DNA of 64,000 nt. Origin: Paraspadella gotoi. Its lineage: Eukaryota > Animalia > Chaetognatha. The position numbers and the translations under genes are program-made. The notes beneath the pieces were generated by a model. It was not told where the DNA came from. It searched no databases and saw only the letters and a program-made list of their open reading frames with translations. Positions 986-57,131 of this stretch are shown one piece after another. The stretch spans positions 9,301,530-9,365,529 of the forward strand of contig CM119270.1 of the NCBI GenBank assembly GCA_051294375.1. The letters are read 5' to 3'. How positions within the stretch are numbered: the first letter of the stretch is position 1; each line of letters starts with the position of its first letter.

Positions 986-2952
986 GAAGTCATTGATGGA
1001 GTTGATGGAGAGACGAGGTGCTTGGGTGGTTGAGGGATGTTTCACGTGATCGGCGCGAAAGTCACGTCACTGGTCAATCAATCGCGCGACGGTGGTAACG
1101 TAGTTAGATCCGAAATTAAAAACTCCGAGTCACGTTTCGAAAGTTTTTAATTGTTACAACGACATCCATTAAAAGTTGAATCGAATTCCAACAATAATAT
1201 TATTAGTATTTCAACTTTTTTAGCTTAATGAGAAAATCTATTGTTCGGAGGGGAGAGGATGGAAGGGCGGGGGCTGAGACGCTTCTCTTTCTTGAAGCCT
1301 GTTCGCTAGTGCACGAACATAATTTTTAGTTCCAGCTTGACCGTGTGTTGATTTTGAATAACTGTTGTCTTTCTTGTTGCCGAATTATTTTTTAGTCGAA
1401 CTTTTTTGTCGTTCATTCTCTTCGTTTTGATATTGAACATCGAATTTCATTTGATTTTTTTTTCGTTTTAAATTTTGGTAGATTTGATCGTTAAATCGTT
1501 TGATCGTTAAAATTTTTAACTTATATTGCAAATGGTAATTGAGTTTCGATGTCTAGTTTGAACGGAGAATGAACCTCTATTCCATGTCATTTTATCTCGT
1601 GTTCCTTTTGTTAATGAAAATTCAATGCAAAAAGTTCCGTAAAATTTTAATTTAAGCACCCCTGAGTTAAGAGGAGTTTTCAGATATTGTATTGTGTACT
1701 ATGTAGTTAGATAGTAGGCAGCGACGATGTGGGTGTGAGAGAGAGTGTGTGTGTGAGTGAGTGAGTGAGATAGTGTGAGAGAGAGAGAGAGAGCGTTTTT
1801 GTTTTCATCTAAATTTTTTCTATGCTTATTTTTCATCCATTACTTCCTCACATCATTTTCCTCTTCCTTCTCTTCACACTCATTATACAATCAATGTAAC
1901 CATTACAAACGTCTCACGTGGAGAGATCTCCAAAGATCGCAAAAAGTCACAACAATAAGAAACGGATCCCCTCGTTTCCCTTTTTTTTATTTTCTGAATT
2001 CATAAGACTTATGAGCTTTTCGTTTCATTTCCCTCCTCGCTGCGATAAGGTGAGACTATTTTAACACTTTATTTATTTATCTTAGATTTGTAAGGTAACA
2101 TGTAACATATAAAAAGCTTATTCACATTTAAAATTTTGTATAAAAAACTTTGACGGATGACAAAATTGTATTTATTGAATACTTTTGTTTGTAACTTACA
2201 TACTTTTCATAGTTCAAATCTGTTTCTCTCTAAGGAATATGTACATATCTTGTTTTCCTTTTTATTTTTTTTTCACGCCTACGACTTCACGTCTCGAGGC
2301 TTACGACCTACACCCACCAGGGCCACCACTACAAAAGTTCTTTCTTTTACAATCTTTCTCACAGTTAAATTATTTTCTTTCTTTCCCTAATCCTTTTGTC
2401 CATTTTTTTCTCTTTCATTCATTTAATTTTACTTTTTCTTACGCTCACTTTCTCGTTCCTCCCTTTTTCACTATGTTTTCAAATTAATCCTATTTCATTC
2501 TTCTCGACGCATTTACGTAAAAATTTTCATTCGGTTCATCGACCCATCTTGACACCCTTTTGATATGGTAAAAGTAAAATTTGCTTTTCATTTTATTATT
2601 TATTTACTTTTTTAATAGAAAAAGATCCAGAGGAATACGGGTCAAGCTCACCGTGACACGTAACTATTCGATCTTTCGAGATAAATGGTTCACTTTCGTT
2701 CAAGGCCGATTCAAGGCTCTCAGTTATTATCTGCGAAATACGACATCAAGTTGTTAAAACGTATTTTTTGTTTTTTCATTTATATAAATTCGTAATTTAA
2801 TAAAAATAAATAAGGAAATAAACAAGGCCGAAGGGGAATCATAATTTTTTTTTTTAATTTGGAGGTAAAGGGAAAAATACGTATGATACATGGAATTAAT
2901 CGTGAAATTACATTTATCAAAGTTCTCTCGATTTCAGGAAGACTTAGACAAA

Positions 2953-5000
2953 ATGTTTGCTGGGACACAAATCGATTTGGAAGAATCAAATCTCATTTTT
3001 GACTTGAAAAAGAAATTTTTCAATCGGATTAGCATCAGGTAATATTATATTCTCGGTTTAAGTAACGTTAATACATGTATATATTTTTGCGAATGGAAGA
3101 CCATGCGCTTCATTGCTTTTCTTAGATAATCAACTTTTATGTAACTTTTTTGAGATTTTTTTTTTTGAGGGGGGAAACGTCGAATTTACCAATGTATTGG
3201 TACTTATATAATGTTCTCCGGGAGAAACGGACTTTTCTCATCCGTTTAGTAAATTAAAATAAAATAGGATTGACGTGCTTTCCGCCCCTTTTGCAACAAA
3301 GAAATCAAGAAGTACAACAGAAACCCGATTTGGTTTCTAATTCTCGAATTGCAGACAAATCGAATCCACGAGTCGAAGGAAAATCATCGCGGGAATTAAC
3401 TCCACCACTGTGGGAATTAACTCCACCACTGTGGGCTCTTCTCTAACAGAGCGATACGCAAAGGGCCCGTCGGAATCTTCTTCGAATTCGAACGATTTCA
3501 TCTCAAGAATTTTGTCGGCAACAATTTGCCATCCGATTAATATTAAGTATCCGGTCGAAAGGCAAGCTTTGATTGATGTATTCATCGATTTGTTAATGGA
3601 ATTTAATTTTTAGAAAATAATTTTCAAGTTTGTCTGATTAATTTATCGATTGACTGGCTCTCTAATTGATTGATTAATTGATTGATGAATGGATTGATTG
3701 ATTGAAGTTATTAAACATATATCAATCTTCTGCAACTAACCTCGCAGAGATTACCAGCGCCAATTTGTAGACTTATTGCGAAATCTGGCCCCTAACAACT
3801 CTCGCCTCGGGAATTTGTCAACATGTTTGGCGAATGTCGTGGGTGTCCCGGACCACGCCTGCGACGAGATCGACTCCTCCGCCGAATCCCGCGGCTCCAA
3901 CCACTCATTCAAGACCTACTTTTTAGGCGCTGGAGAAAGGAGCGTCACGATGCTGGAGTCGAGGGATTACGTCGACGAAGAGTTCCTCACCACCGGTTGA
4001 CCAACTTTGTATTGAGTCGATAGATGAATACATTTTAAATTAATTCTACTGAATAGTAAAAAAAAAAGATTTAAAATCGTTCAGAATTAATTAAGTCATA
4101 AAATAAAACAATTATTACTTTTTGAAAATATCGTAAACACTATATTTAAATATTCCCTCAACGACCTCCATTTCTCCTAAGGACTGGCCACCACGTCTGC
4201 GTCGACGATCCTTTCCGACTGGCTTCTCCATCACTCCAGCATTCTCAACGAACGCCGGGTGCTGGAGTTGGGGTCGGGCTGCGGATTCGTCGGAATCTCC
4301 GTCGTCACAGAATGTCGCCCTCGGAGTTACGTCTTCACTGATTATCACCAAAAGGTTGTTTCATATTGATACCTGTTCGTTGTCGTTATCTCAAAGATTA
4401 TTATTGTTTAAATAATAGCTTTAACTCTATTATATGCTTATTGCAAACCTTCGTCCCTAACTTTAATCCTTAACCCTAATCACTAACCCAATCCATAACT
4501 TTACTCCTTCACCTAATCCTCAACCTAATCCATAACTTTAATCCTTAACCTAATCCTAAACCTAATCCATTACTTTAATCCTTAACCTAATCCTCAACCT
4601 AATCCATAACTTTAATCCTTAACCTAATCCTAAACCTAATCCATAACTTTAATCCTTAACCTAATCCTCAACCTAATCCATAACTTTAATCCTTAACCTA
4701 ATCCTCAACCTAATCCATAACTTTAATCATTCTCCTAATCCTCAACCTAATCCATAACTTTAATTCTCAACCAAATCCTCAACCATAACTTCTAACCTAA
4801 TTTTAAACCTTTAAAATTAACTTGATTAAAGATGAAATTGAACGCTTTGAGAAAATAAGACCATTCTTCTTATCCGACCGATGTTTTTTTTAGGTTCTTT
4901 CCCGCTGCAGAGAAAATTTCCTTATTAATCAAAAATCTTCTTGTGAAACGAAAGTGGAATTTCGAAAACTTGATTGGAAGAAAATGAAGAAAGAGGAGTG

Positions 5001-5040
<40 letters not shown>

Positions 5041-7486
5041 CTGTCGTTTTGTTTTTTTTCGAGATCAACAGATGTCGCTACCTTAGACCTGAGGATAATT
5101 CTGCAAAAAGAATATCGATAGACAAAAGAATAAAGAGAGCCATATCTCTTTGATTATTAATTTTATTATTTATATTATCAATGAGAGTAAAAGCAGTAAT
5201 AATAAAAATGTTTGCCTCTCCCGAAAATGAGTATCACTTTTTGCCTATATTCCCATATTTTTTTTTTCGCTTTTGCTCTGTCGGTCAAACGAAATTTTAT
5301 CTTCTTGAGAAATTTATTTAAGTTTAGAAATTTGATTCAAGTGATTTGGTTTTTCTTCATGTTAGCTTCGCCGGTCGACCTGATTCTTGGCGCTGACATC
5401 GTTTACGACCCCCTCCTCGTTCCGGATCTCGTTTCTGTCCTCAAACATTTTCTCATTCGACGCCGACAAAACGAAAACAAAAAGGCAAAGGGATTTTTAA
5501 CCGATCGATATACTTTATTGACCCGGTCCGAACGAGAAAAAAAAACTCACTCTATTTACATTCAGGATACTAAGTTGGAGTGCAGACATAGAAATAAAAA
5601 AGTAGACTGCAATGGCGATAATGACGGAGATGTTGACTGCAATGAAGACCACGAGGTCGACCCTCTCGCCGTCTTTGTCTCCGCGATTCGAGATTCAACC
5701 ACGCTCGATTTCTTCATACTTTGTCTCAAAAATTTTGGGTGAGAAATGGTATAAAAAATTTATTATAAAATTGGTACTGACTTTGGATAGGCTATCGTCT
5801 GTAAAGGCCTTTATCCCTCTTACAATATATAAACATAGCAGGGCAGTTTAGTTTTTTTACTATCAATAAAGTTGTAGGTACTCTGGGAGTGAATAAACGA
5901 GACTGTGAGAGACTAGATTGAAAGCTTGCAGGGACCTACTATGTCATTATCTTGTAAGAGTGATGGAGGCCTTAAACCACCAGAGCCTGTCCAAAGTCAG
6001 GGTAAGATTGCTTATTTATTAAATGAATGGATAATTTTTATATTGGTTGTACCAATTCATAAAATTCAGCTCCTTGTATTTTGATTATGGGTGGAGTACA
6101 ATATAGTATTCCCTGATCTAATACTTAAGAGGTGGTCTTTTCATACAAAACATTCTTTGAAACATACCACTTCATTGATAGGGAAGCCAGGTACTCTGGG
6201 AGTGAATAAACGAGACTGTGAGAGAGTCTTGATTGAAAGCTTGCAGGGACCTGCTAGGTCATTATCTGGTAAGAGTGATGGAGGCCTTAAACCACCAAAG
6301 CCTGTCCAAAGTCAGGGGCAAGATAGCTTATTTATTAAATGAATGGATAATTTTTATATTGGTTGTACCAATTTCATAATGTTTCAAAAAAGGTTTCAAT
6401 TATATAAAAGGAACACTCCCTCATGTTTAATTTTAATTCTCTTCATATGAAAGTAAGACTTTTTAAGCCTTTTAAAGTTGCACGTTATTATTTTTTACTT
6501 TAGAGAAGATATAACCACAACGAAACGAAAGGATCATAATGTCTAATATTTTTTACTTTTACTTTTTTAGTCTGGATATGCTCAATGTTCATATTGTTTT
6601 TATATATTAAATACGTTTGAATCATAAAATGAAAAGCTACGTTTTTATCTACATTACTGATCATTTTCGTTTTAGAAAATCATTTGACAAAAAAGTAAAA
6701 ATTTACCTTTCAAATATATTTACCCCTTTACTGAAAAAATAATAATCAACAAAATCCTGTTTTATATTGTAAACTGTAAAGATAAAAAACCGCAAAATGT
6801 AAATTTGTTAAAATTTTCAATCATCGTATCATTTTACCCAATTTTAACAGAGGCCCTCTATTTCTTATATTTTTATATCCGTAATACCACGAGTTCGAGA
6901 GATAAAAAATAACTTTTTATTTTTAAAAATTTGAAGACTTTCGGTGGAGGACTTCGAGGACGATCAGAGCGACGACTGGGAATTCCCGGATCGCGACTTT
7001 TTCAACTTCTCCGATCGAGACGCGGAATTTAAGACGCTCTTTATTCGAGACGCTTCATCGGACGAAGAGATGGAGATGCTGGAAGTGCAAGACATGCTGG
7101 AGAGTGGCGTCGCAGAGGAAGTGGAGAAAAGCTGCGATGGGTTTTATGATGAGGAGGAAGAATCGCTGGCGCCCGTTGCTTTAACAGAGAAAGATGCAAT
7201 TGTCGGAGTCGCCGGAATCGAATCGGACGGAAATTCAAAATTAGGCGATGTTTCAGTTAATGAAGAAGATACAAAGTCGACATCTTTTAGTTTATCTGAT
7301 AAAGATGAGGAATTATCAAATATTTGTAATTCTTCGACTGCTACAAAAAATGATTTGTCCTTTGAGAAAGAGATTATATATTATTCACAAACGCTGACGA
7401 CGGGAGATCACGAATATATGATTGCGTGCAATTCCCTGAGCGTGAATCTTGTCAATGTGGCTACTAAACAAGAAAAGGAATTGTAG
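2953..7486 (+). CDS. EEF2KMT: EEF2KMT/FAM86-like lysine methyltransferase (MTF16 family). Exons ~2953-3038, 3355-3561, 3748-3995, 4182-4354, 4894-5002, 5366-5738 (possible internal intron 5485-5565), 6937-7486
   Basis: FAM86-type N-terminal segment (ILSATICHPINIKYPVERDYQRQF), motif I VLELGSGCG, post-I YVFTDYH, LDW and the MTF16 signature DLILGADIVYD. All junction phases are compatible. The start codon is inferred. Confidence 0.88.
4455..4805. repeat. Intronic telomere-like minisatellite, ~37-bp unit built from ~12-bp subunits (AACCTAATCCTC / AACCTAATCCAT / AACTTTAATCCTT)
   Basis: Directly visible tandem array of degenerate CCTAA(T) hexamers, with one CCCTAA near 4475. Confidence 0.9.
5876..6380 (+). 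repeat. ~320-bp dispersed/tandem repeat family, ~1.5 units in an EEF2KMT intron
   Basis: 5876-6060 recurs at ~6190-6380. The unit junction motif ATTGGTTGTACCAAT is at 6042 and 6358. Confidence 0.9.
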
Positions 7487-8529
7487 CAAATATTTCATAC
7501 TAAATTTGCTGACTGGCTTTACACTTTTTGACAGTGAAGTAAATGCTTTGGCTTCTATCATTCTCAATGCTCATTTTTTTGGGCATAAATAACTTTCTCG
7601 CTTTTGAGTATGCAGTAGTTTACACTTTAACGATTTTATTGTTGACGAGGTCTTTACTTACGAACTAACGATTTACGTTTTAACATTTAAAAGTTTGCTT
7701 TTTTATTGAAATATAATTTTTTAACATTATTTTTTCATGGTTGTCTTTATCAAAAGTTTATTTAGGTATATTTAGTATCATAGGAGACAATTTACTTAAT
7801 GAACTTAATGGAATCGTGTGTGAAAAAAATATTAATTTCACAAAAGACGTAATATAAAATGTTATAAAAATTGTCCAGTGGTTTTGAATGGCGAACGAAT
7901 GAAAAATGGGCTCGAAAGGAAGAGAGGGGAAAACGGAATTGTGAGAGAGCGTGAAAAAAAGTGAAAAAAGAAAAGGAATTGGCTCAGAAAGGGGAGGGGG
8001 AAAGCAAAAAGAAGACAAGAAAAAAACGTGGAGGCATTGAAGGATAAAAAGGACGACGACGACGACGACGACGACGAAGACGACGACAGACGAAGTATAA
8101 AGTCAACGAAAAAAACACCCCCCCCCCATTCCCGATCGAAAACTTAAAAAAGCAAAGACGAGGAGTTGGGTGCCGCAGCGAGGACGACGACAAGGACAAC
8201 GACGACAAGGAACAAGTTTTAGCAAATTATGTCGGATCTGCCCACGATCATTAGCGGTAATTTATTAATTTATTAATTAATTTAATTAATTCCCTAATTA
8301 ATTAATTAAAATGTTTGTTTTTAGATCTTTTCATCACTGATCACGACAAAAGCAACGATGACGATGATGGCGACGACGATTGATTTATTGAATAATATAT
8401 TGATTGATTAATTGACTGATTAATTAATTATAAATTAATTAAATGATTAATTGATTAATTAACTGATTAATTATTTTATTAATTAATACTTCTTGCATCT
8501 ATATATAAAAAGAAAACAAAGCATAATCA

Positions 8530-9175
8530 ATGAGTGAAACAGTTTTTTTGTTTTTTTTCATTTAAACTTTAAACTCATTTCCACTCAAACGATTCCATCG
8601 AAAACTAATTTCCAGCCTCATCACACACTTTACTACCCACATAAAAAAAATAGTGAAATATGTTTTTTTGTTTTTTCCATTTAAACTCATTTCCACTCGT
8701 ACGATTCCATCGAAACTTCATATCCAGCTTAATCACATACTTCCCTTCCCACACAAAATTTCATTCACATCCATCTATCCAATCACGAGCAATTGGAGTT
8801 TTTTGCTAAGGTGGGATGGACGGACAGACAGACAGACGGACAGACGGACATCGTTTTTTCTGCATAATTTATCATAATTCGATGTTCTTATATTATTGAA
8901 TGCCCGACAAGATTGAGGAGGACCGACGGACCGACAAAGTGAATTATGGATGGATGGATGGACAGATGGATGGACAAAATTTTTTTTGGCATAATTTATC
9001 GTTGTAACATCTATTAAAAACTTTCGTTTTTTTCGAAATCGCTAACATTATAAACAACGAAAAGAGAGAAAATACACAATGCATAATTTATCAGATTTTG
9101 ATGTTCTGACATGATCTAAGTGAATGCCGGACAAGATTGGGGGGGTGGACCGACGGACTGACAAAGTGGATTATA
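8530..9175. repeat. Internally duplicated repeat fragments with GACAGACG/GATG microsatellites (DINE/HINE-like remnants)
   Basis: 8530-8650 resembles 8650-8760, and 8860-8950 resembles 9080-9175. Confidence 0.55.
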
Positions 9176-10182
9176 GAGTCGGAATCAGCTTTAAGCAGAT
9201 CTGACTAAAAACCGGTGAGAGGGAAAGTCTCGGGTCAGATTTCCATTCAATAAATGGAAGAATAGCGGAAAGAGATCCGAGTCACAAGGCTCCACGATTT
9301 AATGCTTTAGATATTTAAATATGAAATTTCGTTGCACCCGTTATGAAATTACTACTAGTAGTACAACCAATATAGGAAATAAATTCATTGAAATTAATTC
9401 AATTTAATGTAATTTAATTTAATTCATTATTCAATATAATCCTTTCGTTTGTTGTGTTTTTGATTAGCAAAGAGATTTGTTTTTGGGCAAACAACATTAA
9501 ATAAAATCGTTGTTTGCCAAAAAAACAAATTTCTTTGCTAGTTTTATTCATTAAATAAGGGGTAAAATTTTACATTCATTCATGATATTTCTACTCATTC
9601 CATAATATTCGAAAGTGTCAAAAAAAACCTCCTACTCATCTTTGAAAGGGTCTATTGTAAGGTATACTTTATAAACTAAGTGTTTAAATAAGCTAAACAT
9701 GAAGTAAAATGACTAATTAATTAATTGTTAAAACTGAGGCCGAGCTACCTCGACTCTCCGGTCATTCAACGGGCTTCAACGGGTTTCTTCCGTCGTGGCC
9801 GGAGACACGAGGAACACAACCAATTCAACCTTTCATCCCAATAACATCGTTTTGTCTCTATTTCCCTTTTTATATCATTGTATTGCCTCGCAATTTAAAC
9901 TCTTTTTTTTTTAATATATAATGCTAAGTTTAAATTATCGAAAGAAATAGTAGTTTTTCTTAAGGGGGAAAGTTTTAAGTCAGAACCTTATTCATGTTCA
10001 ATGTTCAGAGCAGGATCCTCTAGCGTGTGGCCCTTCCATTGAACTTCGGTTTGGCTGACCCATGCAATTTCGCCAAATATGGGAAACTCTGGAGCATAAT
10101 TTGTGACAGTGGGGTTTGCGTTCGCGCTAACCCCTTATTATTTTGAATAACTTCTCCTCTCTCTCTCTCTCCTCTCTCTCTC

Positions 10183-10229
<47 letters not shown>

Positions 10230-10531
10230 GTAGCCTCCCCTATTTAGTTCCTCTCTCTCTATCTTTATTTTCTTTTCTATCTCTCGTTTCGAGTCTCCCG
10301 CTTAACAAGTTAAAATCAGTCCAATCCAAAAATGCTAATTAACTTACTCCGTGAAGTCGTCAACGTCTCAAAAAGTATGAATGCAAGTCTTCGCCAAGTT
10401 ACGGATCTAATTGACACTAGAGAGATAAGCTGAGAAGTAAGTACACAGCTGCTGCAGTGAAATGAATCAAAACGTGAATGAAAAGAGGAGAATGGTGTCC
10501 ATACCAATTTAATAATTTTAATATTTTTTTA

Positions 10532-10840
10532 TTATGGTGGTACCAATTTCATAACAGTCAGCACCTTGTATTGTGATGATAGTGCGGAGTAAAAAATAGT
10601 ATTCGCCGATCTAATACGTAAGCATGTGATCCTTTAATACAATTGAAACAATTCTTAAAAACATTATACCACTTTATTTATAGGTTAGCCGGGCAGACTG
10701 GGAGTGAAAAAACTAGAGTGTGAGAGAATCTTTATTGAAAGCTTGCTGGGACCTGCTCTGATATTATCCAAAGCATGTCTAAAATCAGGGGCAAAACACA
10801 TCATTTATTGATCATTATATTGATAGTACCAATTTCATAC
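10532..10840 (+). repeat. Diverged solo copy of the ~320-bp repeat
   Basis: Shares GTACCAATTTCATA at both ends and internal blocks (CTGGGAGTGAA, TTGAAAGCTTGC, GGGACCTGCT). Confidence 0.8.
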
Positions 10841-11096
10841 ACAACATTTTTATTATTATTTTTATTATTATTAATATTATTATTAATTTACTTATTTTCT
10901 TATTTTTAAAGAGATTTATCAAAAACGACGACATTTTGTCTATTGATATTAATTCTTCCATTATGCCAAATTCGATTGAAAAATTATTTTCCTGTTAGTT
11001 AGTTAGTTTGTTTAGTTAGTTAGTGGTTCAACCCAAGTTCAAGTCCGTCGGTCGTAATCATCGTTTCATCTTTCGGAAGATCGATACATGATCACT

Positions 11097-11710
11097 TAAC
11101 CGAGCCAAAATTGAACACTTTTTATAACTTTTAGTTCTCTCAAAAAAATTTCTTTTTTCCTTCTATTACTAAATCGATTTTCAATGCAACTTTTGGAATT
11201 AGTTCATTGGGTTGTTGCACTGAAGCTTTTAAATATTTATTAATATATAAGAAATTACAAAAAAAAATTTTAGATTTTATTTTTTAAGAACTGATTCCTA
11301 TAGAGCTATAAAAGTTAAATGAAAGTTAGTACTATAGTACTACAATCTTTTAAAATTTTGATAATAAATTGGTTAAAGATAGAAAAAACCTTAAAAAATC
11401 ATCATCATAATCATCATTGGCGTAATTTTATAGTTTTTAAAATTTTTTATCAATAAAACAACAAAAATTTAAAAAGTTGTATTAATGAGCCTTATCTAAC
11501 TTTTAAGGCTCTACCAGAATCTATTAAAAAAAATTTGAAAAATTTAAAAAACTTTAAACTTTATATAGTAATAAAATAATCTTTAAATGCTTACGTGCGC
11601 TAATCAATAAGATAAATTTTAAAAATTATTTTTATTTTCATATTCTCTAACAGTCACTTAACCATTATTTATTTGAAAGAACTTCTAGTTTTCAACCTGT
11701 TCCGGCCTAA
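11097..11710 (+). mobile_element. MITE / non-autonomous DNA transposon, copy 1
   Basis: Collinear with 55941-56439 over ~500 bp. Imperfect terminal inverted repeats (CAAAATTGAACACT vs AGTTTTCAACCTGTTCCGGC) and TAA flanks. Confidence 0.7.
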
Positions 11711-12551
11711 TGATCACGCTTATTCACTTTTAATCTGTTATTCATTCGATTATTATCAATATTATATTCTAAGTCATATGACATTATATTATCATTTTTA
11801 ACTGCTATTTTTCTGATTTTTTATCAATATTTTTAAATGTACGTTATAAATTGTCATATCAATTTCGTAAAAATGTTATTCTATAATATTTGGCTTAAAC
11901 AATTATTTTCTCGGTTTATGTTTTAAATTAGTTGTCACATTCCAAATTTAGTTTCTTTCAAAATTGGGGCAGAATTTGAACATTTACTTCAATTATCGTA
12001 TTTTGAAGGTTCGTTAAGTTTTTAACTTCACTCAAATGAATCAGGCTTCAAACCTTTCACGCCTGGACAAAAGAGTTTTTTTTTTTTTTACTTTTTATTC
12101 CAAATATTAATGAAGAATAGTGGATGCAATATAAAAAGTTTTTTAAACAGCTCCTCTTCTAAGTTACTTCTAAGTTTTCGTCTCTCTCTTTATCTCATAC
12201 ATTTTGCCTCGGCTATCTCTTCAACTGAATTTTGACTCTACTTTTTTATACGATTTTTATAAATATGGTCGGAGTCAAGTTACGACTCATTAAAAAAAAA
12301 ACGTTCTTCCTGCTCGAAATCCCGTTTTACGGATTTAATATGTATATTTTTTGATAATCAAGTTTATAAAAACTACAAAATTCTTAATGAAGCGAATTCG
12401 CGAATTCGATTTCCGGAAAAATCAGAACCTCAGGGCTCATCTATCGAGATGCTTTATCGAGCGTTCGTGGTTGCGACCATCCTAGTAGCAGTTTTTAAAA
12501 AAAATTCTTGAAAATCATGTAAAAATTATGGGATCTGTGGAACGTCTTAAA

Positions 12552-12828
12552 AACTGACGGCTGTAGTGACGTCACTATTCGTTAGATACGTCAGTTCCTT
12601 CCATCAACGCACAACGCACTGGGCTTACGCTTCATCTACATGGTCCTGGGTTCTAGCCTTGGTTGGAACGGTCCTTGCAAAGGAGTGTCGGGACGTTTAA
12701 ACCGCAGCATCCGAAGTTCCCGAAAATATCCAATATCCATTAATCATCAGTTACTCAAAGCTGAAGCCAAATGAACGTGCCTCAAGTATACCGTCCGAAA
12801 AGCCTTTCCCCTTGCGGGAGGCGATATT
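12552..12828 (+). mobile_element. tRNA-derived SINE-like or solo-LTR-like element
   Basis: 5' hairpin AACTGACG...CGTCAGTT, B-box-like GGTCCTGGGTTCTAGCC, core GGGACGTTTAAACCGC and a 3' stem-loop-like tail. Confidence 0.5.
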
Positions 12829-13879: not shown

Positions 13880-14790
13880 ATCGACATTCATCAATGATCG
13901 ATTATCATCACATTACTGATTGATTGTCATCCCATTGATAAATCCTTATTATCGCTTTGATAAATCCTTATTGATATATCAATAAAAATCAAAGTGGTTA
14001 TCTTTGCATGATTGATCATGCCTATCAATAAATAGTTATCAAAAACTTATCATTTTATCAATAAATGACTATCATCTTATTAATGAATAATTATCATCGT
14101 ATTTATATCAATGATTGATTATCATCATAACCAATGAATTTTCATAATCGAATCAATTATTGCCTATCTATGGCATCACTGATTTACTATCATTGATATT
14201 ACGATTGAATTTGATTGCATCAATGTCTATGCTTGCATTAATGAATGATAGTCATCTTATATCAGCCTGATCAATCTAATCAATCTGAAGCGGAAGTATT
14301 TCATACCCCGCTACTTGTCCGAGAATCAGCAGCACCTACGGCGCCCGATGTAGCACGAGCTTCCTCCCAACCCATAAGGACTCGGGTTTCGCGCCCTGCC
14401 GATTTACACAAGTAAAAGCGGGACGGGCGTCTAACCCACCTGTAGTGACGGACTACAGCCAGATCGAAGTGCGCAACGGACGGTGAACTGCTTGAGGCAT
14501 CGTCTTCCACATTGTAATTCGAACACGCAAACTTAATTCAATCAATCTTATAAAGATTGATAACTTTAATTGATAGATAAGCTTATCTATCAATGAATGA
14601 CTATCATCGCATCAATGAATGTAATACTATCGTTTGCTTTAATGAATTAATGTTTTAAATTAATGTTATGAACTAATGACTATCATCGCAACAATAAGTG
14701 ACTATCATCACATCAATGAATGACAATCATCTCATAAATGAATGAATTACTATGACTATCATTACATCATTGCTTCAATGAATTACTATC
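13880..14790. repeat. Degenerate ~20-bp minisatellite (ATCAATGAATGACTATCATC-like) interrupted by a GC-rich element at 14289-14530
   Basis: Recurrent TCAATGAAT and ACTATCATC words on both sides of the insertion. Confidence 0.65.
14289..14530 (+). mobile_element. tRNA-like-module element (probable solo LTR or fragment related to the TRIM)
   Basis: 5' hairpin, tRNA-like CTTCCTCCCAACCCA...GGGTTTCG segment, and core plus hairpin shared with 20335-20557 (-). Ends CTTCCACA followed by GTAATTCGAACACGCAA, a tRNA-Trp T-arm complement also seen in the TRIM. Confidence 0.6.
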
Positions 14791-15418
14791 ACCGCTTCGG
14801 GAAGTAACTATCGAGAAGTTGTTGCGTCCACAAAGTGTCAATTTAGAATTCACAATTTTTTTTTTCATTGAATTCATTCTAATAAAACTTTTGCAGGCAG
14901 GATCACGATATTTAAAATTTTTGCTGAATGGCTGATTGTAAATAGCTAAAAAATTAATTCAAATTAAAAAAAATTAAAAAAATTCATATAAATTAAAAAT
15001 TATTCACATTAAAAAAAGTTACATAACTAAAAAAAAATATACAATTAAAAAACTATTTAAATATTTTTTCTATTAATAAAACAATTTTTAATTATAAATA
15101 TTATTTATACTGCAGTAATAGTTTAAATATTCCTTAAATACGATTAATATGTATTGGCGCGGCCACTGGTTTGAATGACTGATTGATTAATTGATTTATA
15201 GATTTTTTCATGAATTTATTAAGAAGTCTGTTATTTTTCTTATGTCATCTGATTAGCTGATTACCTCTAAATTATCGTAGGCAGATCCGACATTGTTTTG
15301 CTCGAACTTTTTTTATAAAAAAATTTCTAAAATCGAAGAAAATTGATTGTTCATTAAGTCTCAAAATTTGGAACAGGCGCCTTTGGTCTCCAGGAGCGTG
15401 AGAGTAAACAATCTTTCA

Positions 15419-18037
15419 ATGACGATGACGACCACTACGACGTTCGCTTTGACTACGATGACCGCTTCTTGGTCAGAGTCAACTTCCGGTTTATCGACGT
15501 CTATAACCACCACGCATTCGCCACCTTCACCGCCGACAATGCCACTACCATTAACTCGATCACCAATACCTGCGGCTTCACCTTCTACGCCATTGCTGTC
15601 GCCACTGTCAACGCTGCATCCGCCGCAGCCTCCTGAACCGCTGTCGTCGCCGCCGCCGCCGCCGCCTTTGCTTTCGAGATTACTTTGGCCGCAGTCCAGA
15701 GAACTGCCTCCACAACCCTGGCCGTTCCCGCCCCTAACGCCGCCACTGCCGCTGAAATCGTCCCCAATTGAAAAAATCCGACAATTTTTGATGTCGCTGT
15801 CGTCGTTGGCGTCGCTAGTGTCGCTGGCAATGGCGTTGTGCGGAAGCGTCTGCGTCTATTCGATGATCTTCAGTTTGGCGCCGAAGATGGTCAGGGATTT
15901 TGGGTTCGGCGAGCGGGAGGTCGCAAAGCAGGGCGGAATCCTCACAGGTCAGTCAGAGAGAGGGGCTGGCAGGGGTTTTGGTTTGTTTTGAACCTTTTTT
16001 TGTTTATGGTCTTGTTTTTAAACGCATAGTAGATTTTTGAAAAAAATTAATTACCGGAAAATCGGAAAGATTCTGATAAAATTTACGCTCATAAAGAGAG
16101 GCTCTCTGTTCATATTATTTTTTTCAGAAAGTATGCTAGTAGTAATTAATTATTCTTATTCTTTTTACTTTACTAATAAAAAATGTAATTATCTTGCTGT
16201 ATCCTTAACAACTAAGTAACGTAAAATGTCCCCATTCCCTTAAAGGCGCCTACTACGTGGGTGCCGCCGCGACGAACGTCCTCTGGGGTCGCGCGTCGGA
16301 TCGCTTCGGGCGGCGCGGCGTCCTCGCCGTTTCTCTCTTTGCCGTCGGCGCTGCTTGCGTCGGTTTCGGCCTCAGCGAGACGTTCACGGCGGCGATAGCG
16401 TGGCGTACTGTCAATGGCGCCCTGGACGGCGTCAGATCCGTGGCGCGGGCGGCCGCGGGTGACGCCGCTAACGACGCCGCCTCGCACGCCAAAAACGTGG
16501 CCGTCGTCTTTGTCGGTTCGACGGTGGGATTCTCTCTCGGTCCAGTCGTCGCTGGATACGTGGCTGGTGAGACAAGGGGGGGGGGTGATGAGGGCGGAGT
16601 GTTGACAAGTGGATAAAAATATAAGTGAATGCTAGCGCCGCCTTCAGGAAATCCTAAAACTATAAAGAATAAAAGGCGGAATTTCTATGCAGTGCATGTC
16701 ATAAATACAATTACAATGTAAAGACGTTTGTTTTACATAAATTTCCTCGTCATGTAGTCATGATGTGATTATAGGGAAAAGAAAGTCACTTCGGCGCAAC
16801 ACATTGGATGGACCGATCTTGTTACTTTTCCATTGACCCAATTCGTCTTTCTTATTTCTCTTCATTTTTTCATATTTCTTTTTATTCCTTCTTTCCCTTT
16901 TTTTCTTTCTCCACAGATTCCGCCCCATTTTCCCCTCGTCAGCGCGTTTCCAGCGCCCTCTGTCTCTTCGCATTCTTCCTCGTCCTCCTCTTCCTTCAAA
17001 GCAAAAAAGACGACAGAAAGAAAAACAAAGCAAGCGAACCCAGCGAATCCAGCTCGCTGATCCCGCCTAAAAGTGACGACGACGACGAAAACGACGATAA
17101 CGTCAAACCAAAGAAGGCCGACAACAACAACAACAACAACCCGTGTATAAACAAAACGTCCGACGCGGCCAGCGAGGAAGAAAACCAAAACAAAATAAAA
17201 AACGAACCCAAAAATGTGGTCGCCATGGAAACGGAGGACTCGGAGGACTCCTCCCTATCCTCTTCCTCATCTTCTCCTCCTTCCTCCGAATCCCTCATCG
17301 TCCTCTTCCTCCTCATTCTCCTCAACGCCGTCTTTTCCTTCGCCTTCCTCGGCGTTCGCGACGGCGTCACTCTTTGGGCCGGCGTTGCCGCATCTCACGG
17401 CGGACTTGGAATGACGCCGGCTGACCTGGGCCTCGTCGCCGGCGTAGTGAACATTCCCGCCGTCCTCGTCGGCATCTTCGTACTTCCCCTCCTCACCGCT
17501 AAGGTGGGACTGCGGCGCGGCGCCGTGCTGTGGATTTTTGGATCCGCCATTTTCTCGCTGCTTTTGCCGACGACGAAACTTATGGCGGACTCGACGACGA
17601 CTATGACAACGACGACGACATCTCCGTTCAACTCCACGTTTACGTCACTCAACGTCACAGCCCCACTCCACGCGACAAGAGGATTAAACGAAACTACGCC
17701 GCCCTACGCCATATCGCCGCCAGCAACCAGGTTTCGCTACAAACTCGTCCTCATTCCTCTCTACTGTCTCCAGATCACCTGCGCAAGCGCAGCCTGGCAG
17801 AGTTTCGCGGCGCTGATCAACGAGCGCAGTCCCGCCGGGCAGCGCGGGATTGTCAACGGGGTGGCGCTGACGACGTCAATGGCTGCGCGGGCGTTTGGTC
17901 CGGTCGCTGCCGGTGCCATAATCTCCGCGGCCCTGCGGGTCGGCGTCGACGCCGAATTTCGGCGCTACGGTCTTGTATTTTTCGTTTTCACTCTTGTCTA
18001 CGTGGGTGTGGGCGCCGCATTAGCCGTCTTGAATTGA
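15419..18037 (+). CDS. Major facilitator superfamily transporter, ZIFL/YCR023C-like. Exons ~15419-15947, 16246-16566, 16917-18037
   Basis: MFS motif A WGRASDRFGRR, antiporter-type motif GFSLGPVVAG, C-terminal QRGIVNG...ARAFGPVAAG and ~12 hydrophobic segments. Both introns are phase 1 GT-AG. The start codon is uncertain (Pro/Thr-rich N-terminus). Confidence 0.9.
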
Positions 18038-18256
18038 ATTTGAAAAAATATCCCTTTTTTTATTCTTGTTTGTACGTAATTGTGTAAGAAAAATTTCAAG
18101 ATTACTTGTTTTACTATATTAGACTAAATTGGATTAATAATAAAAAGACATGTAAATGTAAAAATATATATTTCACTAAATATTACATTTAATTATATTC
18201 TTTATATAATATAATGGGGAGAGGGATGTTAGTGTTGTCTCTGGAAATAGAGGGAT

Positions 18257-18960
18257 TATGGCAACGGGAGGATAGCCTGTGATACCCGGGCGCGGGGTAT
18301 CTCACTAACTGGCGTAGGGGCTGCGGACCCTCAGTGACCGCCGTCACATTTAAGCCAGAACCGGGATACCCAGGGATTGAACCCGGGACGCACGGATGGA
18401 ATGAGATGATTTAGCCTGCTCAGCCATTGAGACGAGGCTGAGGACGGACAGCAGTGAGGCAGCTTTAAGTCTTGCTGCCACAGGATCCCCCCACCAGACT
18501 TCTCCACAGGGGCCTCATCCTGAGGAGATGTCTGAGAGAAGGTTTTGATCTCATTGCCATAGTGAGAGCGAGCGGGCGAGCGAGCGAGCGAGTCTGGAGC
18601 GTTACCAGAGAAGTAGGGCATAGGCGTGATATGCATACCCTAAGCGACGTAAGCGTGGGCGCACGGTGCGCAGCGGTTGCGTGTTCGAGAGTAGGGCTCA
18701 CCACTTATGGCAATGGAGGATAGCCTGTGATACCCGGGGCGCGGGGTATCTCACCAACTGGCGTAGGGGCTGCGGACCTCAGTGACCGCCTCCTGTCACT
18801 GGCATGTTTATACCGGCACCGTCACATTTAAGCCAGAACCGGGATACCCAGGGATTGAACCCGGGACGCACGGATGGAATGAGATGATTTAGCCTGCTCA
18901 GCCATTGAGACGAGGCTGAGGACGGACAGCAGTGAGGCAGCTTTAAGTCTTGCTGCCACA
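18257..18960 (-). mobile_element. Complete TRIM (non-autonomous miniature LTR retrotransposon) with a tRNA-like module in its LTRs
   Basis: Direct repeats at 18706-18960 and 18257-18482 with termini TGTGGCA...TGCCATA on the minus strand. 4-bp TSD GGAT at 18253-18256 and 18961-18964. PBS TGGTGAGCCC lies 2 nt after the 5' LTR and a purine tract GGTGGGGGGA precedes the 3' LTR. A-box-like TGGCTGAGCAGG and B-box GGTTCAATCC lie inside each LTR. Confidence 0.9.
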
Positions 18961-19172
18961 GGATCATCTATACAACACAAGGTTAAAAGTTACTTTGTGC
19001 CCTAGTTTTCGAATTAGATATTAGGCATCGTTCTTGTTAAGAAGTCTTTTATTGAAAACTAAAAATATCTAAAAGTCTGAACAGAAAGGGTTGGAGGCCA
19101 TAATTTGTTATGGGATAAGGATTATTTATGATTTACTATTGTTGTGGGTGAAGAGACAGTAATTATTGTTAT

Positions 19173-20316
19173 ATGAAATTGGTACAACCAATATAAAAAT
19201 TATCCATTCATTTAATAAATAAGCTATCTTGCCCTGACTTTGGACAGGCTTTGGTGGTTTAAGGCCCCATCACTCTTCAAGATAATGACATAGCAGGTCC
19301 CTGCAAGTTTTCAATCAAGACTCTTTCACAGTCTCGTTTATTAACTCCCAGAGTACCTGGCTTCCCTATCAATGAAGTGGAAAATATTTCAAAGATGTTT
19401 CAATTGTATGAAAAGACCATCCCTTAAGTATTAGTACTCCGCACTAGCATCAAAATACAAGGAGCTGAATTTATGAAATTGGTACAACCAATATAAAAAT
19501 TATCCATTCATTTAATAAATAAGCTATCTTGCCCCTGACTTTGGACAGGCTTTGGTGGTTTAAGGCCTCCATCACTCTTACAAGATAATGACATAGCAGG
19601 TCCCTGCAAGTTTTCAATCAAGACTCTTTCACAGTCTCGTTTATTAACTGCCAGAGTACCTGGCTTCCCTATCAATGAAGTGGAAAATATTTCAAAGAAT
19701 GTTTCAATTGTATGAAAAGACCACTCCCTTAAGTATTAGATTGGTGAATACTTATTGTACTCCGCACTAGCATCAAAATACAAGGAGCTGAATTTTATGA
19801 AATTGGTACAACCAATATAAAAATTATCCATTCATTTAATAAATAAGCTATCTTGCCCCTGACTTTGGACAGGCTTTGGTGGTTTAAGGCCTCCATCACT
19901 CTTACAAGATAATGACATAGCAGGTCCCTGCAAGTTTCAATCAAGACTCTTTCACAGTCTCGTTTATTAACTCCAGAGTACCTGGCTTCCCTATCAATGA
20001 AGTGGAAAATATTTCAAAGAATGTTTCAATTGTATGAAAAGACCACTCCCTTAAGTATTAGATCGGGAATACTTATTGTACTCCGCACTAGCATCAAAAT
20101 ACAAGGAGCTGAATTTTACGAAATTGGTACAACCAATATAAAAATTATCCTTTCATTTAATAAATAAGCTATCTTGCCCCTGACTTTGGACAGGCTTTGT
20201 GGTTTAAGGCCTCCATCACTCTTACACAGATAATGACATAGCAGGTCCCTGCAAGTTTTCAATCAAGACTCTTTCACAGTCTCGTTTATTAACTCCAGAG
20301 TACCTGGCTTCCCTAT
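19173..20316 (-). repeat. Tandem array (~3.6 units) of the ~320-bp repeat
   Basis: Unit starts ATGAAATTGGTACAACCAAT at 19173, 19473, 19797 and ~20118 (ACG variant). Units are near-identical. Confidence 0.95.
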
Positions 20317-20334
20317 CCCTATTCCCTATTCCCT

Positions 20335-20557
20335 ATGTTAGTGACAGAAACGTTCATATAAGCAGTCCCTGAGCTTCGGATCAGGTTGTAACACCGTGTT
20401 ACAGGCGGGTTAAACACCCCATCCCTCTTAACTGCTAGGCGGCCACCCGGTTAGAACCACGGACCTTTGGGTTGGGAGGCGAATGACTTGCCTCCGTCAC
20501 CAATGGCCGCTGATGAACGGTTGGTGGATTTTATTCCACCATAGGGGTTAAGACTAC
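20335..20557 (-). mobile_element. tRNA(Gly-like)-derived element (SINE or solo LTR) followed by an (ATAGGGA)n run
   Basis: 72-nt tRNA-like segment 20439-20510 with a perfect acceptor stem GCGGCCA/TGGCCGC, TTCGCCTCCCAA anticodon-like region and B-box GGTTCTAACC. The anticodon stem is unpaired, so it is not an intact tRNA. Confidence 0.7.
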
Positions 20558-26772: not shown

Positions 26773-29700
26773 CTAGACGTTCGAAAAAGTCCCGTGTTTC
26801 TCCTTGCAAATGTTCTTGTGTCCCGCCACCCAGTGATTCTTCTGACATTCACGGGAGCAGTACCAGGCGTTCTTGCACCTAAAGAAAACGGGAAATAAAA
26901 AAAATTGTTGTTTTATTTCGTCAAATGAGTTGAAAAAATAATTTTTTTATTGTACCTCGAACACGCGCGGTACGTGGCGCCGATGGGCGTGGCCTTCCGG
27001 TCGCAGTGCGTGCATTTGGTGGCGTCTTCTCCCTCGAACGTGCACCGCGCGCAGCAGCATTCGAAGCCCCACCCGCGGAGGAGCGCCTGGCGCCGCTTCC
27101 GCTTGGGTTGATTTACGTCTAGGAGGGTGAGGTATGGAGTACAGAGTTACAAACGGACAAAGGAGAGATAGATTAAATAGTAGATTGACAATCAACATAG
27201 TAAAAGAAATGTAAATGTTCTGAAAAAGAATTTTTAAAAAAATTACAAGAGAAAACAAAGGTTGTTTTTGTTTACAAACAACGCGTTTTTTTCGGAGTCT
27301 TCTTCAACACAAAGAGACGCGAAAATAGAGTCGAATCATGTCCGTTCACTAATAAAACGTGCTTGTGTTTTTTTTGTGTTTGTAAACAAAAACGAACTAT
27401 ATTTTCTCTTCTAATTCCAAACGCAGGTAATTAAAATTTTACATAATTAAACATATTTAAACGGGGTTCCTTCATTACTGTTTTCTTGCAGTTTTCTTCC
27501 AGTAAGCTGTTAACGGTGTCACTGCTCTTACTGAACACTTTTTTTTCTTTCAAAAAGACGCCATTCCAATGTCACACATTTTCACTCTCCTACCGCCCTT
27601 CCTTTTTCTTACCGATGTATCTGATCGTGAGCTGCTCGCCCTTCTTGATCGGGCGCAGCGCCTGTACGATAATCCCGACCCGATCGTCGACGAAATCCGC
27701 GACGACGCGGCAGTTGTATCCGCAGTCGTGGTTGAGGCAGGCGTGCAGCGCGAACATTCCGCTGAAGATTGGGTCTTTGTCCGGCGCTGATATCAGCCCT
27801 TCCTGCTTCTTCTCGTCGAAGTCCTGGGGAGGGGTGAGGCGCGGGAGTAAGGTGGTTTCGAGGTAAGGGTCGTGAAGGGTCATTCTGGATTGTCTGGCCC
27901 TATTTAAATTTTTAGTTGCGCCGCGAGTACTCGCGGAGCAACTCTATAAGTCACTTTTCGGTCGGTGGTCCGTCAGTCGGTGTGTCCATCCGTCTGGTCC
28001 TTTGGTATGCCTATAGATTGTTGCTCATTTATTGAAAATCAAATTTAAGCGATTACTGGCGCCGCTTTTTGTTTTAATTATAAGTAAAAAGAAAAGCAAT
28101 GCGGCGTAAACACTTGGAATAACCGTTCCTTGTTTTTTTAAAGATTAGTTTATCCGTTATTTGAAAATAATTTTAAGAACCTCAATAAGCAGTAATAGTA
28201 TTTTTGAACTAAATCGTTATGTTTCTCTAAAGGGTTTNNNNNNNNNNTATGTTTCTTTCCGTTTCCACTTCACTTTCTCTAAAGGGTTTTTCATTTTTCC
28301 TGACATTTTCCTAATTTCTACGTTCAAATCTTCTTATAATTTTTAATTTGACTTTCTCTCGTCACCTCTGAGTCTCTGAGCGAATCTTTGAACAGTTTGA
28401 GGTTGTGGGTCGGGGGTCTGAACTCCTGGCAATTGATGGCCGTTTGAGAATATCGCCATTCGAATTCCTCGTCCGAGATGCCAAACTTTAAAAAATTAGA
28501 TAATATTAGATTTAATAATAAAAACTAAATATCTGAAAAATTAAAATAGTGAAACAAGGCTTTTGCAATTTTCATTTTTTCGAACAAAAGAAATTAAATT
28601 TGTAAAAATACTAACAAGATGAGGTGACTTACACACTTACACATTAGGTAAATAAATAATAATTAGTCTCGTCCCATTTTTCTAATCACCTTAATCGGTA
28701 AGCTTTTATCCGTGAAGACCTTTTGAATCATGTTGACGAGAATGCGTGAGTTTTGCGCGTATCCACTCACGTCACACCCAATGAAACCTCTGTCAATGTC
28801 AGAGATCACGTGACTTAGCGATCGATACCATCTTATCAACTTATTCTCAGTCACTTTTGTTTCCCCACCTGAAAGTCTCCATGGCTTCGGTGATCTGCTC
28901 CACCGACGGCTTCTTTCCCTCGCCCGCCATCTTCAAGGCTTTGGACATGACGATGGCCCAAAGTCTCGTGAGGATCATGGGCGTGGCGGTGTTGGAGGGC
29001 GGGATCTCTTCCCTACTCCTGGATCGCATCGCTCGGCAGTAGACGTGCACCTCTTCGGCGCTGCGGTTGGTGCCCGGGCATGTGATCTTGTGATAAGTGT
29101 CCCAGGAGAGATCCCGGCACCGTTCTGAGCAGTATTCCTCGAATTTGCAACCGTTGCAAGGCACTGTTTCCGTCCGAGTCGTCGTCGTCGTCGAGGCAAC
29201 GGTGCAGTTTGGAGGCGACGACCGAATTGTCGAATTCCAAACATCCATTTCATTTTTTTTGTTCGTGCGATTATCATGATTGTTTTTCGTTTTTTGGATA
29301 ATTAGTCGGAGCGCGTGGAAATACGAAAATGAAATATAAAGAATAAACATCGAGGTTACGCAACATCAACGTTACATAAAAACACACGCAATAGACGAAA
29401 AGCAGTTAAATGAAACTTTAAAACTTTGAAATCAATATTTAGAAAATTAAACTTTGTAAATTCTCTTATTAGTGAACACTAATCTGTATTCCATTTTTTC
29501 CTCTTATGTCACTACTCACTAGTATCTCATTCAATGTATTTAGTACGTAATACTAACCCTACAGCATCATCATCATCAGCAATCTCAAGCAGTACATTCG
29601 CCGACAGTACCTACCTATGCGGAAGGCCGGCCAATGTCTCTTTAGAACGTCGTGGAGATCGTCCGGCCAAGCGTCGCAGTCGGGGAAGTGGAAGACGGGT

Positions 29701-56894: not shown

Positions 56895-57131
56895 TGTGGA
56901 GGTCAGAGTTAAAACCGCCTCACAACCTTTTCCCTCTGGCTTCGTCTCAATGGCTGAGCAAACTTCGTCTCCTTGTCTCAAGTGAAAGATCTGTGAATTA
57001 TATTTTTCTGTGACGGAATCTCTTCCGAAGCATCGGACCCCTTAAGATGCCTCATGTGTTACGGTCATGAGTTGACACGACCGTCGGACCCGACGACGGG
57101 AGGGATCCGAGTCGTGCCTCCCCCGTTTCAT
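56895..57131 (+). mobile_element. Old solo LTR related to the TRIM at 18257-18960
   Basis: Starts TGTGGAGG...TTAAAACCGCCTCAC (TRIM: TGTGGCAG...TTAAAGCTGCCTCAC). Shares TCGTCTCAATGGCTGAGCA and TGTGACGG, and ends CCTCCCCCGTTTCAT (TRIM: CCTCCCGTTGCCATA). Length is similar; no TSD is preserved. Confidence 0.7.

What the first reader, a model, noticed from the sequence alone, without database searches (positions are those of the whole stretch)
18655..18705. Primer-binding site extended into an antisense copy of most of tRNA-Trp, minus the anticodon arm
Seen on the plus strand: CGTGGGCGCACGGTGCGC-AGC-GGTTGCGTGTTCGAGA-GTAGGGCTCACCA, ending in CCA 2 nt from the LTR. Recalled metazoan tRNA-Trp: ..CGTGGCGCAACGGTAGCGC-[anticodon arm]-GGTTGCGTGTTCAAATCACGTCGGGGTCACCA. 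The element RNA is therefore complementary to the 3' acceptor strand and also to the T-arm and D-arm. Inference: either a multipartite PBS that unfolds and captures the primer tRNA (cf. the extended tRNA contacts of Ty1/Ty3), or a read-through copy of the primer tRNA fixed during reverse transcription. The same T-arm complement (TCGAACACGCAA) follows the diverged element at ~14519-14530, which suggests it is conserved.
Basis: partly seen in the sequence, partly recalled or inferred. Interest (0 to 1): 0.75.

Follow-up and report, generated by a model that had tools for sequence, protein, structure and literature searches.

The report
Split tRNA docking site in mini-retrotransposon
A small non-coding jumping element carries, beside its normal 10-base primer site, a second 12-base match to the T-arm of the same tryptophan tRNA, which likely helps the tRNA dock much as in yeast Ty1, while the claimed third (D-arm) match is weak and is not seen in a sister family.

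Summary
The sequence is as described. It lies in a 704-nt non-coding LTR element (TRIM) on the minus strand, 18257-18960. Its TGT...ATA ends, 4-bp target duplication and PBS variant match the CsRn1 Gypsy clade; its LTRs carry tRNA-like A/B boxes (Helenus-like) and a predicted twister motif. Against a tool-derived tRNA-Trp (another organism's), the PBS matches 9 of 10 and the T-arm block 12 of 12 (0/2000 shuffles). The D-arm block is only suggestive (p 0.011-0.15 by scoring). A sister family shares only the 39-nt core of T block, spacer, PBS and LTR end, and shows no D block. Folding predicts a buried PBS and an open T block; scrambling the T block cuts predicted binding from -14 to -3 kcal/mol. 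Most likely a Ty1-like split primer site that began as an over-copied primer: 8 distinct unrelated loci show unbroken 32-50-nt tRNA-Trp copies. The 14.5-kb match is real (19/21) but not the same family. Function is untested. This scan earlier noted the twister/Helenus element type in this genome, and over-copied tRNA-Trp primer sites in other genomes.

The parts
18253..18256 (.). Target-site duplication, left copy (4 bp)
   Evidence: Same 4 bases at 18961-18964
18257..18482 (-). 3' LTR (226 nt, TGT...ATA); lacks 30 nt present in the 5' LTR
   Evidence: 228 of 263 columns identical (30-nt gap, 2 substitutions, 3 one-base indels); loose ends at 18255 and 18482 in host contigs
18483..18505 (-). 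Purine-rich tract (putative PPT) abutting the 3' LTR
   Evidence: Sequence directly
18549..18566 (-). Internal inverted complement of the U5 end and first PBS bases; predicted to bury the PBS
   Evidence: 0 of 1000 shuffles reach the pairing energy; pairing probability 0.83-0.89 in four folds
18654..18671 (-). D-arm-like block (weak match to tRNA-Trp 6-24; itself a small GC hairpin)
   Evidence: p 0.011-0.15; best of 18 tRNA 5' halves, 25 vs 19 or less; not seen in sister family B
18675..18688 (-). T-arm block: complement of tRNA-Trp 44-55 (exact 12-mer, plus 2 T-loop bases in the L017 variant)
   Evidence: shared with sister family
18689..18693 (-). 5-nt spacer in place of the 8-nt complement of the rest of the T loop and T-stem 3' strand
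   Evidence: T core at offset 17 instead of 20 from the PBS start; predicted unpaired 0.98
18694..18703 (-). Primer-binding site for tRNA-Trp, 9 of 10; the position-7 G is a documented CsRn1-clade variant
   Evidence: PMC2582038 passage
18706..18960 (-). 5' LTR (255 nt, TGT...ATA)
   Evidence: loose ends at 18960
18765..18827 (-). Predicted P5-type twister-like motif; predicted cut near 18810; P4 one base shorter than in the 3' LTR
   Evidence: Own descriptor relaxed after a first miss: only hit in the window, 2 of 3000 shuffles; Rfam gave no twister hit here
18852..18861 (-). B-box-like motif of the LTR's tRNA-like segment
18893..18904 (-). A-box-like motif, 43 nt before the B box
   Evidence: ARAGORN calls a tRNA here only at 70% threshold
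18961..18964 (.). Target-site duplication, right copy
14514..14534 (+). Separate unbroken complement of tRNA-Trp 41-61 after an unrelated GC-rich island; not part of this element
   Evidence: 19 of 21; only window site with a 16-of-17 match to the L017 3' tRNA copy

Best explanation
This is the leader of a 704-nt non-coding LTR element whose RNA is predicted to bind its tryptophan-tRNA primer at two separate sites, the 10-base PBS and a 12-base T-arm block, with the open T-arm block likely serving as the first docking point because the PBS is predicted to be folded away. Shown: element anatomy, the two matches, and retention of exactly T block + spacer + PBS + LTR end in a diverged sister family. 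Predicted: the PBS is buried by an internal inverted repeat and the T block is open; the tRNA acceptor stem and T arm unfold while the anticodon hairpin stays folded; the D-like block, where present, may add a third helix but looks optional. Inferred: a CsRn1-clade Gypsy element supplies Gag/RT/integrase; the block arose when plus-strand synthesis ran past m1A58 and the longer tRNA copy was fixed, then eroded; it is now inherited through the element RNA rather than recopied each cycle.
For: T block exact 12-mer, 0/2000 shuffles. Predicted binding -24.6 native vs -12.8 with T region shuffled (0/300); in the longer RNA -14.4 vs -3.4 (0/60). P(unpaired) PBS 0.27, T block 0.72 in 4 of 4 fragment choices. 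The cofold gives separate helices with the anticodon hairpin intact. Family B leaves the alignment exactly at 18675 (11 contigs in X1, 1 in X10; X9 at 18677) and at 18713; in run X9 this core is the only internal stretch with raised depth (about 12,700 vs 970). Unbroken 32-50-nt tRNA-Trp complements in 10 of 37 loci (8 distinct), 2 of the 8 with RT or retroviral-type protease domains downstream, against exactly 18 nt in 9 of 14 viral-collection loci. TGT...ATA, 4-bp TSD and G/C PBS variant are CsRn1-clade features (PMC2582038). Ty1 precedent (PMC4974528, PMC3592414).
Against: No binding or priming experiment. The tRNA is not the host's and was folded unmodified, without chaperone. The spacer is as well shared between families as the blocks, so selection on the T block alone is not shown; recent recombination could also give a shared core. 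Family B was seen only through 30-nt loose ends and was found because it shares this core. The D block is weak; in Ty1 the analogous Box 2.1 pairing was not confirmed in particles. The two wasp Trp-primed Helenus families show no such block in the supplement search (line breaks could hide a match). The 32-nt lower bound was built into the search pattern, so the frequency of long PBSs is unknown; 8 of the 9 18-nt controls have near-identical flanks.
Confidence: 0.55

Rival explanations
1. Neutral fossil: an ancestor over-copied its primer tRNA once, the extra sequence has been decaying since, and only the 10-nt PBS matters.
For: Colinear order and near-native spacing with tRNA-Trp; unbroken 32-50-nt copies occur elsewhere, one (L033) continuing into the D arm after a short gap; unmodified primers are copied to their 5' end (PMC13191261 passage); the D block is eroded or missing; the spacer is shared as well as the block.
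Against: The boundary of the stretch shared with family B falls on the first base of the T match, while the flanks are only about two-thirds alike by eye; the T block is perfect while the adjacent 8-nt complement is gone; without it predicted binding falls to about -3 kcal/mol.
Confidence: 0.27
2. The T block is a landing pad for over-extended plus-strand DNA at the second strand transfer, like the lentiviral primer over-extension sequence, and does not pair with the tRNA at initiation.
For: Such a sequence lies just downstream of the PBS in lentiviruses and spumaviruses (PMC13191261 passage); long tRNA-Trp copies imply that read-through happens.
Against: A landing pad should be contiguous with the PBS, yet the first 8 bases beyond the PBS are replaced; no unbroken variant appears among listed differences (tables cut); the family-wide position-7 mismatch suggests the PBS is not routinely recopied; if the RNA circularises after twister cutting, the transfers differ anyway.
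Confidence: 0.1
3. The plus-strand tRNA-like stretch is a captured tRNA/SINE head acting as an antisense Pol III promoter (D block as A box, T block as B box).
For: It reads in tRNA sense on the plus strand and holds the arms that carry the A and B boxes; a T4 run occurs on the plus strand at 18543, which is upstream of the blocks.
Against: It ends in CCA exactly 2 nt from the LTR, the PBS position; neither box pattern matched there; loss of the anticodon arm shortens the box spacing to about half that of a tRNA; family B shows no A-box part.
Confidence: 0.04

Closest known systems
Ty1 multipartite PBS (10-nt PBS plus Boxes 0, 1, 2.1; PMC4974528 and PMC3592414, passages read)
   Same: 10-nt PBS followed 3' by short blocks complementary to the T and D arms of the primer; the D-arm pairing is the doubtful one in both.
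   Different: Ty1 is an autonomous Copia-type element using tRNA-iMet, with tested function; this is a non-coding Gypsy-dependent TRIM using tRNA-Trp, untested.
Helenus / TRIMp3 (Kojima 2024, PMC10886601; main text parts 1-5 of 6, supplement parts 1 and 10 of 11 plus a term search)
   Same: Under 1 kb, two LTRs with tRNA-like A/B boxes, PBS, PPT, 4-bp TSD as in animals; Trp-primed families exist in wasps.
   Different: No T-arm block or ribozyme in the parts read; this family's LTR start and PBS motifs had 0 hits in the supplement.
CsRn1 clade of Ty3/Gypsy (PMC2582038, PMC3630058, PMC3587641; passages read)
   Same: tRNA-Trp PBS including the position-7 G variant, TGT...ATA termini, 4-bp TSD.
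   Different: Those are autonomous with CHCC Gag and Pol; this element encodes nothing. No extended PBS is mentioned in the passages; the PBS figure of PMC2582038 is an image and was not seen.
Ty3 bipartite PBS, Drosophila Gypsy second tRNA-Lys site, ASLV U5-T-arm pairing with tRNA-Trp, lentiviral primer over-extension sequence (PMC5371799, PMC1635307, PMC13191261; passages read)
   Same: Extra pairing to the primer's T arm outside the PBS; ASLV uses the same tRNA.
   Different: The second site is kilobases away (Ty3, Gypsy), upstream in U5 (ASLV) or contiguous (over-extension sequence). In Gypsy the second site was dispensable for cDNA synthesis.
Plant LTR retrozymes (PMC4918200; passages read)
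   Same: Non-coding LTR element, 4-bp TSD, ribozyme motif in the LTR, conserved box of LTR end plus PBS.
   Different: Hammerhead and tRNA-Met there; predicted twister and tRNA-Trp here, with a longer (39-nt) shared box; cleavage untested.

Membership tests
Helenus (TRIMp3) | TRIM shorter than about 1 kb with two LTRs, no coding | tested here: met
   704 nt, LTRs 255 and 226 nt, internal 223 nt; longest stop-free frame over it 102 aa
Helenus (TRIMp3) | tRNA-like segment with A and B boxes in the LTR | tested here: met
   A-box-like and B-box motifs 43 nt apart; ARAGORN call only at 70% threshold; the A box ends AGG rather than the YGG of most families
Helenus (TRIMp3) | PBS and PPT flanking the internal region; 4-bp TSD in animals | tested here: met
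Helenus (TRIMp3) | Pol III transcription from the LTR boxes | not testable with these tools
   No run of 4 or more T on the element strand is compatible only; also unvalidated in the paper
Ty1-type multipartite PBS | Short PBS plus downstream block complementary to the primer T arm | tested here: met
   (non-host tRNA-Trp)
Ty1-type multipartite PBS | Further block complementary to the D arm | tested here: inconclusive
   p 0.011-0.15; not seen in family B
Ty1-type multipartite PBS | Blocks needed for primer packaging or initiation | not testable with these tools
   Only folding predictions
CsRn1 clade (as helper) | tRNA-Trp PBS, TGT...ATA/AAA ends, 4-bp TSD | tested here: met
CsRn1 clade (as helper) | CHCC Gag and Pol phylogeny of an autonomous partner in the host | not testable with these tools
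   The element is non-coding and no host genome is held
LTR retrozyme | Self-cleaving ribozyme in both LTRs | tested here: inconclusive
   Twister-like motif in the 5' LTR only, by a descriptor relaxed after a first miss; Rfam negative; the 3' LTR of this copy lacks the predicted cut site
LTR retrozyme | Circular unit-length RNA | not testable with these tools
   Only contigs were laid

The most novel reading that the evidence does not exclude
A ribozyme-cut, probably circular parasite RNA gates its own reverse transcription: the PBS is locked in a long-range helix, and the primer tRNA-Trp is captured through an open T-arm toehold (plus a D-arm helix in some subfamilies, with the anticodon hairpin looped out). 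The toehold was made by fixing and trimming an over-copied primer, a general route by which Trp-primed Gypsy-type elements build multipartite primer sites.
Probability: 0.22. Interest if true: 0.68.

Novelty: new variant of a known kind. Interest (0 to 1): 0.42.

Why it matters
Extra primer contacts are known from a few models (Ty1, Ty3, HIV, ASLV), but how they originate is rarely visible. Here unbroken over-copied tRNA-Trp sites in other elements, an eroded three-block form and a two-block sister family suggest a series from copying accident to split primer site. A 130-nt non-coding leader makes the idea cheap to test in vitro, and a shared 39-nt core marks a candidate for what a parasite must keep to use its helper. 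If the block is neutral, this is an ordinary Helenus-like TRIM with a fossil.

Tried and rejected
No host genome is held, so no host tRNA-Trp and no copy-by-copy alignment. ARAGORN found 0 tRNAs in the window; Rfam did not call the region tRNA-like. Viral-contig scans for the T block gave 0 hits. The metagenome scan found 0 of 37 loci with this element's short spacer: 26 bacterial-type tRNA-Arg genes, 1 tRNA-Trp gene, 10 unbroken 3' copies. An unbiased sample of related Gypsy elements failed (no relatives). Host lineage stays unresolved: homologue searches gave unnamed or generic JGI proteins and the Atlas only eukaryotic SMYD clusters. No RNA holder is listed; runs X9 and X10 are only guessed to be RNA, so expression was not assessed. 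Run X12 laid nothing on the region. The 11-mer near 26956 lies in an ORF with a SET-domain hit and is treated as chance. The first twister descriptor found nothing and Rfam found no twister in either LTR. The Calliphora CsRn1 sequence was not found in the two readable supplements. A by-sequence look-up of earlier findings was blank. 'Antisense copy of most of the tRNA' and 'conserved at 14.5 kb in a diverged copy' were rejected as stated.

Full report
The element. The flagged bases sit inside a 704-nt non-coding LTR element on the minus strand: 5' LTR 18706-18960, internal region 18483-18705, 3' LTR 18257-18482, with a 4-bp target duplication. The LTRs differ by 2 substitutions, 3 one-base indels and a 30-nt gap. 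Contigs from public runs cover it far deeper than its flanks (about 1e5-6e5 against 1,049 and 3,562 in the end bins of run X1) and break off at the LTR edges into unlike flanks in 20-25 contigs each. It is therefore a dispersed repeat; the tool warns that depth is no copy number. The LTR holds A- and B-box-like motifs 43 nt apart, and the element strand has no run of four T, the layout of Helenus TRIMs (PMC10886601). Prompted by earlier notes on this genome, I looked for a twister motif. Rfam found none in either LTR and my first descriptor missed. A relaxed descriptor hit only 18827-18765 in the whole window and 2 of 3000 shuffles. The 3' LTR of this copy lacks the predicted cut site.

The observation. 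No host genome is held. Against it the PBS is 9 of 10 and the T block (18675-18686) is an exact 12-mer to positions 44-55, the longest exact match to tRNA positions 1-57 in the window; 0 of 2000 shuffles reach its duplex energy. Between them 5 unrelated bases replace 8 (offset 17 instead of 20). The D block (18654-18671) aligns with 17 identities and 3 gaps. No other place among 25,330 window tiles reached its score, though several came within 1-2 points, and it fits tRNA-Trp better than 17 other tRNA 5' halves (25 against 19 or less). But the shuffle p runs from 57 to 771 of 5000 over six scoring schemes and is 109 of 2000 by duplex energy. It is suggestive only.

Conservation. On 18596-18722 the main family is very uniform: 6 substitution rows at 1% or more. 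A sister family (B) matches only 18675-18713, that is T block, spacer, PBS and 8 LTR bases, with one difference at 18689. It leaves the alignment at 18675 in 11 contigs of X1 and 1 of X10. In X9 depth rises from about 970 to 12,700 on this core and nowhere else in the internal region. The 30 bases shown upstream in B resemble the leader further upstream in the window copy and show no D-like hairpin. Their last four letters extend the tRNA match to 16 nt, but similar letters occur in a third lineage, so this may be chance. Rare diverged copies (C) change the D block at 18658, 18662 and 18668; the last gives the tRNA's letter and a small hairpin remains, a mild hint of real D-arm ancestry. The spacer is shared too, so 'blocks more conserved than spacers' is not shown. 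At 14514-14534 a 19-of-21 unbroken match to tRNA positions 41-61 is real, but the island before it is not detectably related to this element.

Origin. Of 37 loci, 26 are bacterial-type tRNA-Arg genes, 1 is the tRNA-Trp gene, and 10 (8 distinct) are unbroken 32-50-nt complements of the tRNA-Trp 3' end with CCA. Four of the 8 follow a CA-T end like an LTR. L005/L027 has an RT domain and L006 a retroviral-type protease downstream; the L002 ORF is NADAR, not Gag-Pol. L033 continues into the D arm after a short gap, and L005 has a second T-arm copy upstream of its PBS. The pattern forced at least 32 nt, so this shows existence, not frequency. In the viral collection 9 of 14 loci have exactly 18 nt and 5 have only the 16 searched for; 8 of the 9 are near-identical in flanks. 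Read-through past m1A58 is documented for HIV (PMC13191261 passages). Over-copying is thus a plausible origin. None of the listed variants of our family is unbroken, and the position-7 mismatch is shared by A and B, so I infer the site is now passed on through the RNA, as reported for the Ty3 PBS (PMC5371799 passage).

Mechanism. Cofolding gives three helices with the anticodon hairpin left folded. An internal inverted repeat (18549-18566) pairs with the U5 end and first PBS bases (0 of 1000 shuffles). In 4 of 4 fragment choices the PBS is mostly paired (unpaired 0.27) and the T block mostly open (0.72). Predicted binding is -14.4 kcal/mol native, -3.4 with T block and spacer shuffled (0 of 60) and -10.3 with the D region shuffled (3 of 60); the shorter leader gives 0 of 300 and 35 of 300. 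I commit to a two-site, toehold-assisted primer capture (0.55), ahead of a neutral fossil (0.27), a plus-strand landing pad (0.10) and an antisense promoter (0.04). All energies use an unmodified, non-host tRNA and no chaperone.

Comparison and novelty. It works like the Ty1 split site (PMC4974528, PMC3592414 passages), where the D-arm box was also not confirmed in particles. Related contacts exist in Ty3, Drosophila Gypsy (second site dispensable), ASLV and lentiviruses. The primary papers by Friant, Muthuswami, and Morris and Leis were seen only as citations. Searches listed no paper describing a T-arm block behind the PBS of a TRIM or CsRn1-clade element. The library omits most subscription papers; 9 of 11 parts of the Helenus supplement were only term-searched; the PBS figure of PMC2582038 and a .doc supplement of PMC3630058 could not be seen and may bear on this. 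PMC3587641 and PMC4918200 were read as passages. Earlier scan notes report similar things on other DNA; they are leads, not support. Verdict: a real feature, overstated as 'most of the tRNA'; a new variant of a known kind; interest 0.42.

Noticed in passing
window 18765-18827 (-): P5-type twister-like motif with a near-palindromic 6-8-base stretch in place of the first helix in the 5' LTR; the 3' LTR lacks about 18791-18820 of it.
   Followed up: partly
window 19233-19274 (-), in the about 300-320-nt repeats at 19170-20343: Weak Rfam Twister-P5 hit (24.2 bits, E 0.072, below gathering) in a different repeat family with copies near 5.9-6.4 kb and 57.7 kb.
   Followed up: no
window 14289-14534: GC-rich island with TG...CA-like ends followed by an unbroken tRNA-Trp T-arm complement lacking the acceptor part; either an LTR with a deleted PBS start or a 5'-truncated tRNA-derived SINE on the minus strand.
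   Followed up: partly
window about 56895-56975 (+): Diverged, truncated fragment of the LTR 5' end including the A box (score 65, 0 of 300 shuffles).
   Followed up: partly
L001, L002, L005, L006, L010, L017, L027, L029, L033, L037: Unbroken 32-50-nt tRNA-Trp complements with CCA, several at LTR-like ends; L005/L027 and L001/L029 also carry a second short PBS copy about 44-50 nt downstream, and L005/L027 a T-arm copy upstream.
   Followed up: partly
window about 29100-49700: Very large inverted duplication centred on an N gap near 39 kb, arms often 95-100% complementary; possibly an assembly artefact.
   Followed up: no
window 18483-18486 and 18961-18964: The last four bases of the PPT side equal the target-duplication bases of this copy, so the LTR repeat looks 4-5 bases longer than it is; host contig loose ends fix the true edge.
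   Followed up: yes
window 15347-18037 (+); 27593-29365 (-); 5206-5742 (+): The element inserted about 220 nt after an MFS transporter gene; SET and MYND exons (SMYD-like) and a weak lysine-methyltransferase hit lie nearby.
   Followed up: partly
window 18609-18644: Hairpin in the leader containing an 8-base palindrome, and a near-repeat of the PBS-spacer letters at about 18609-18619; a possible dimerisation or alternative-pairing site.
   Followed up: no
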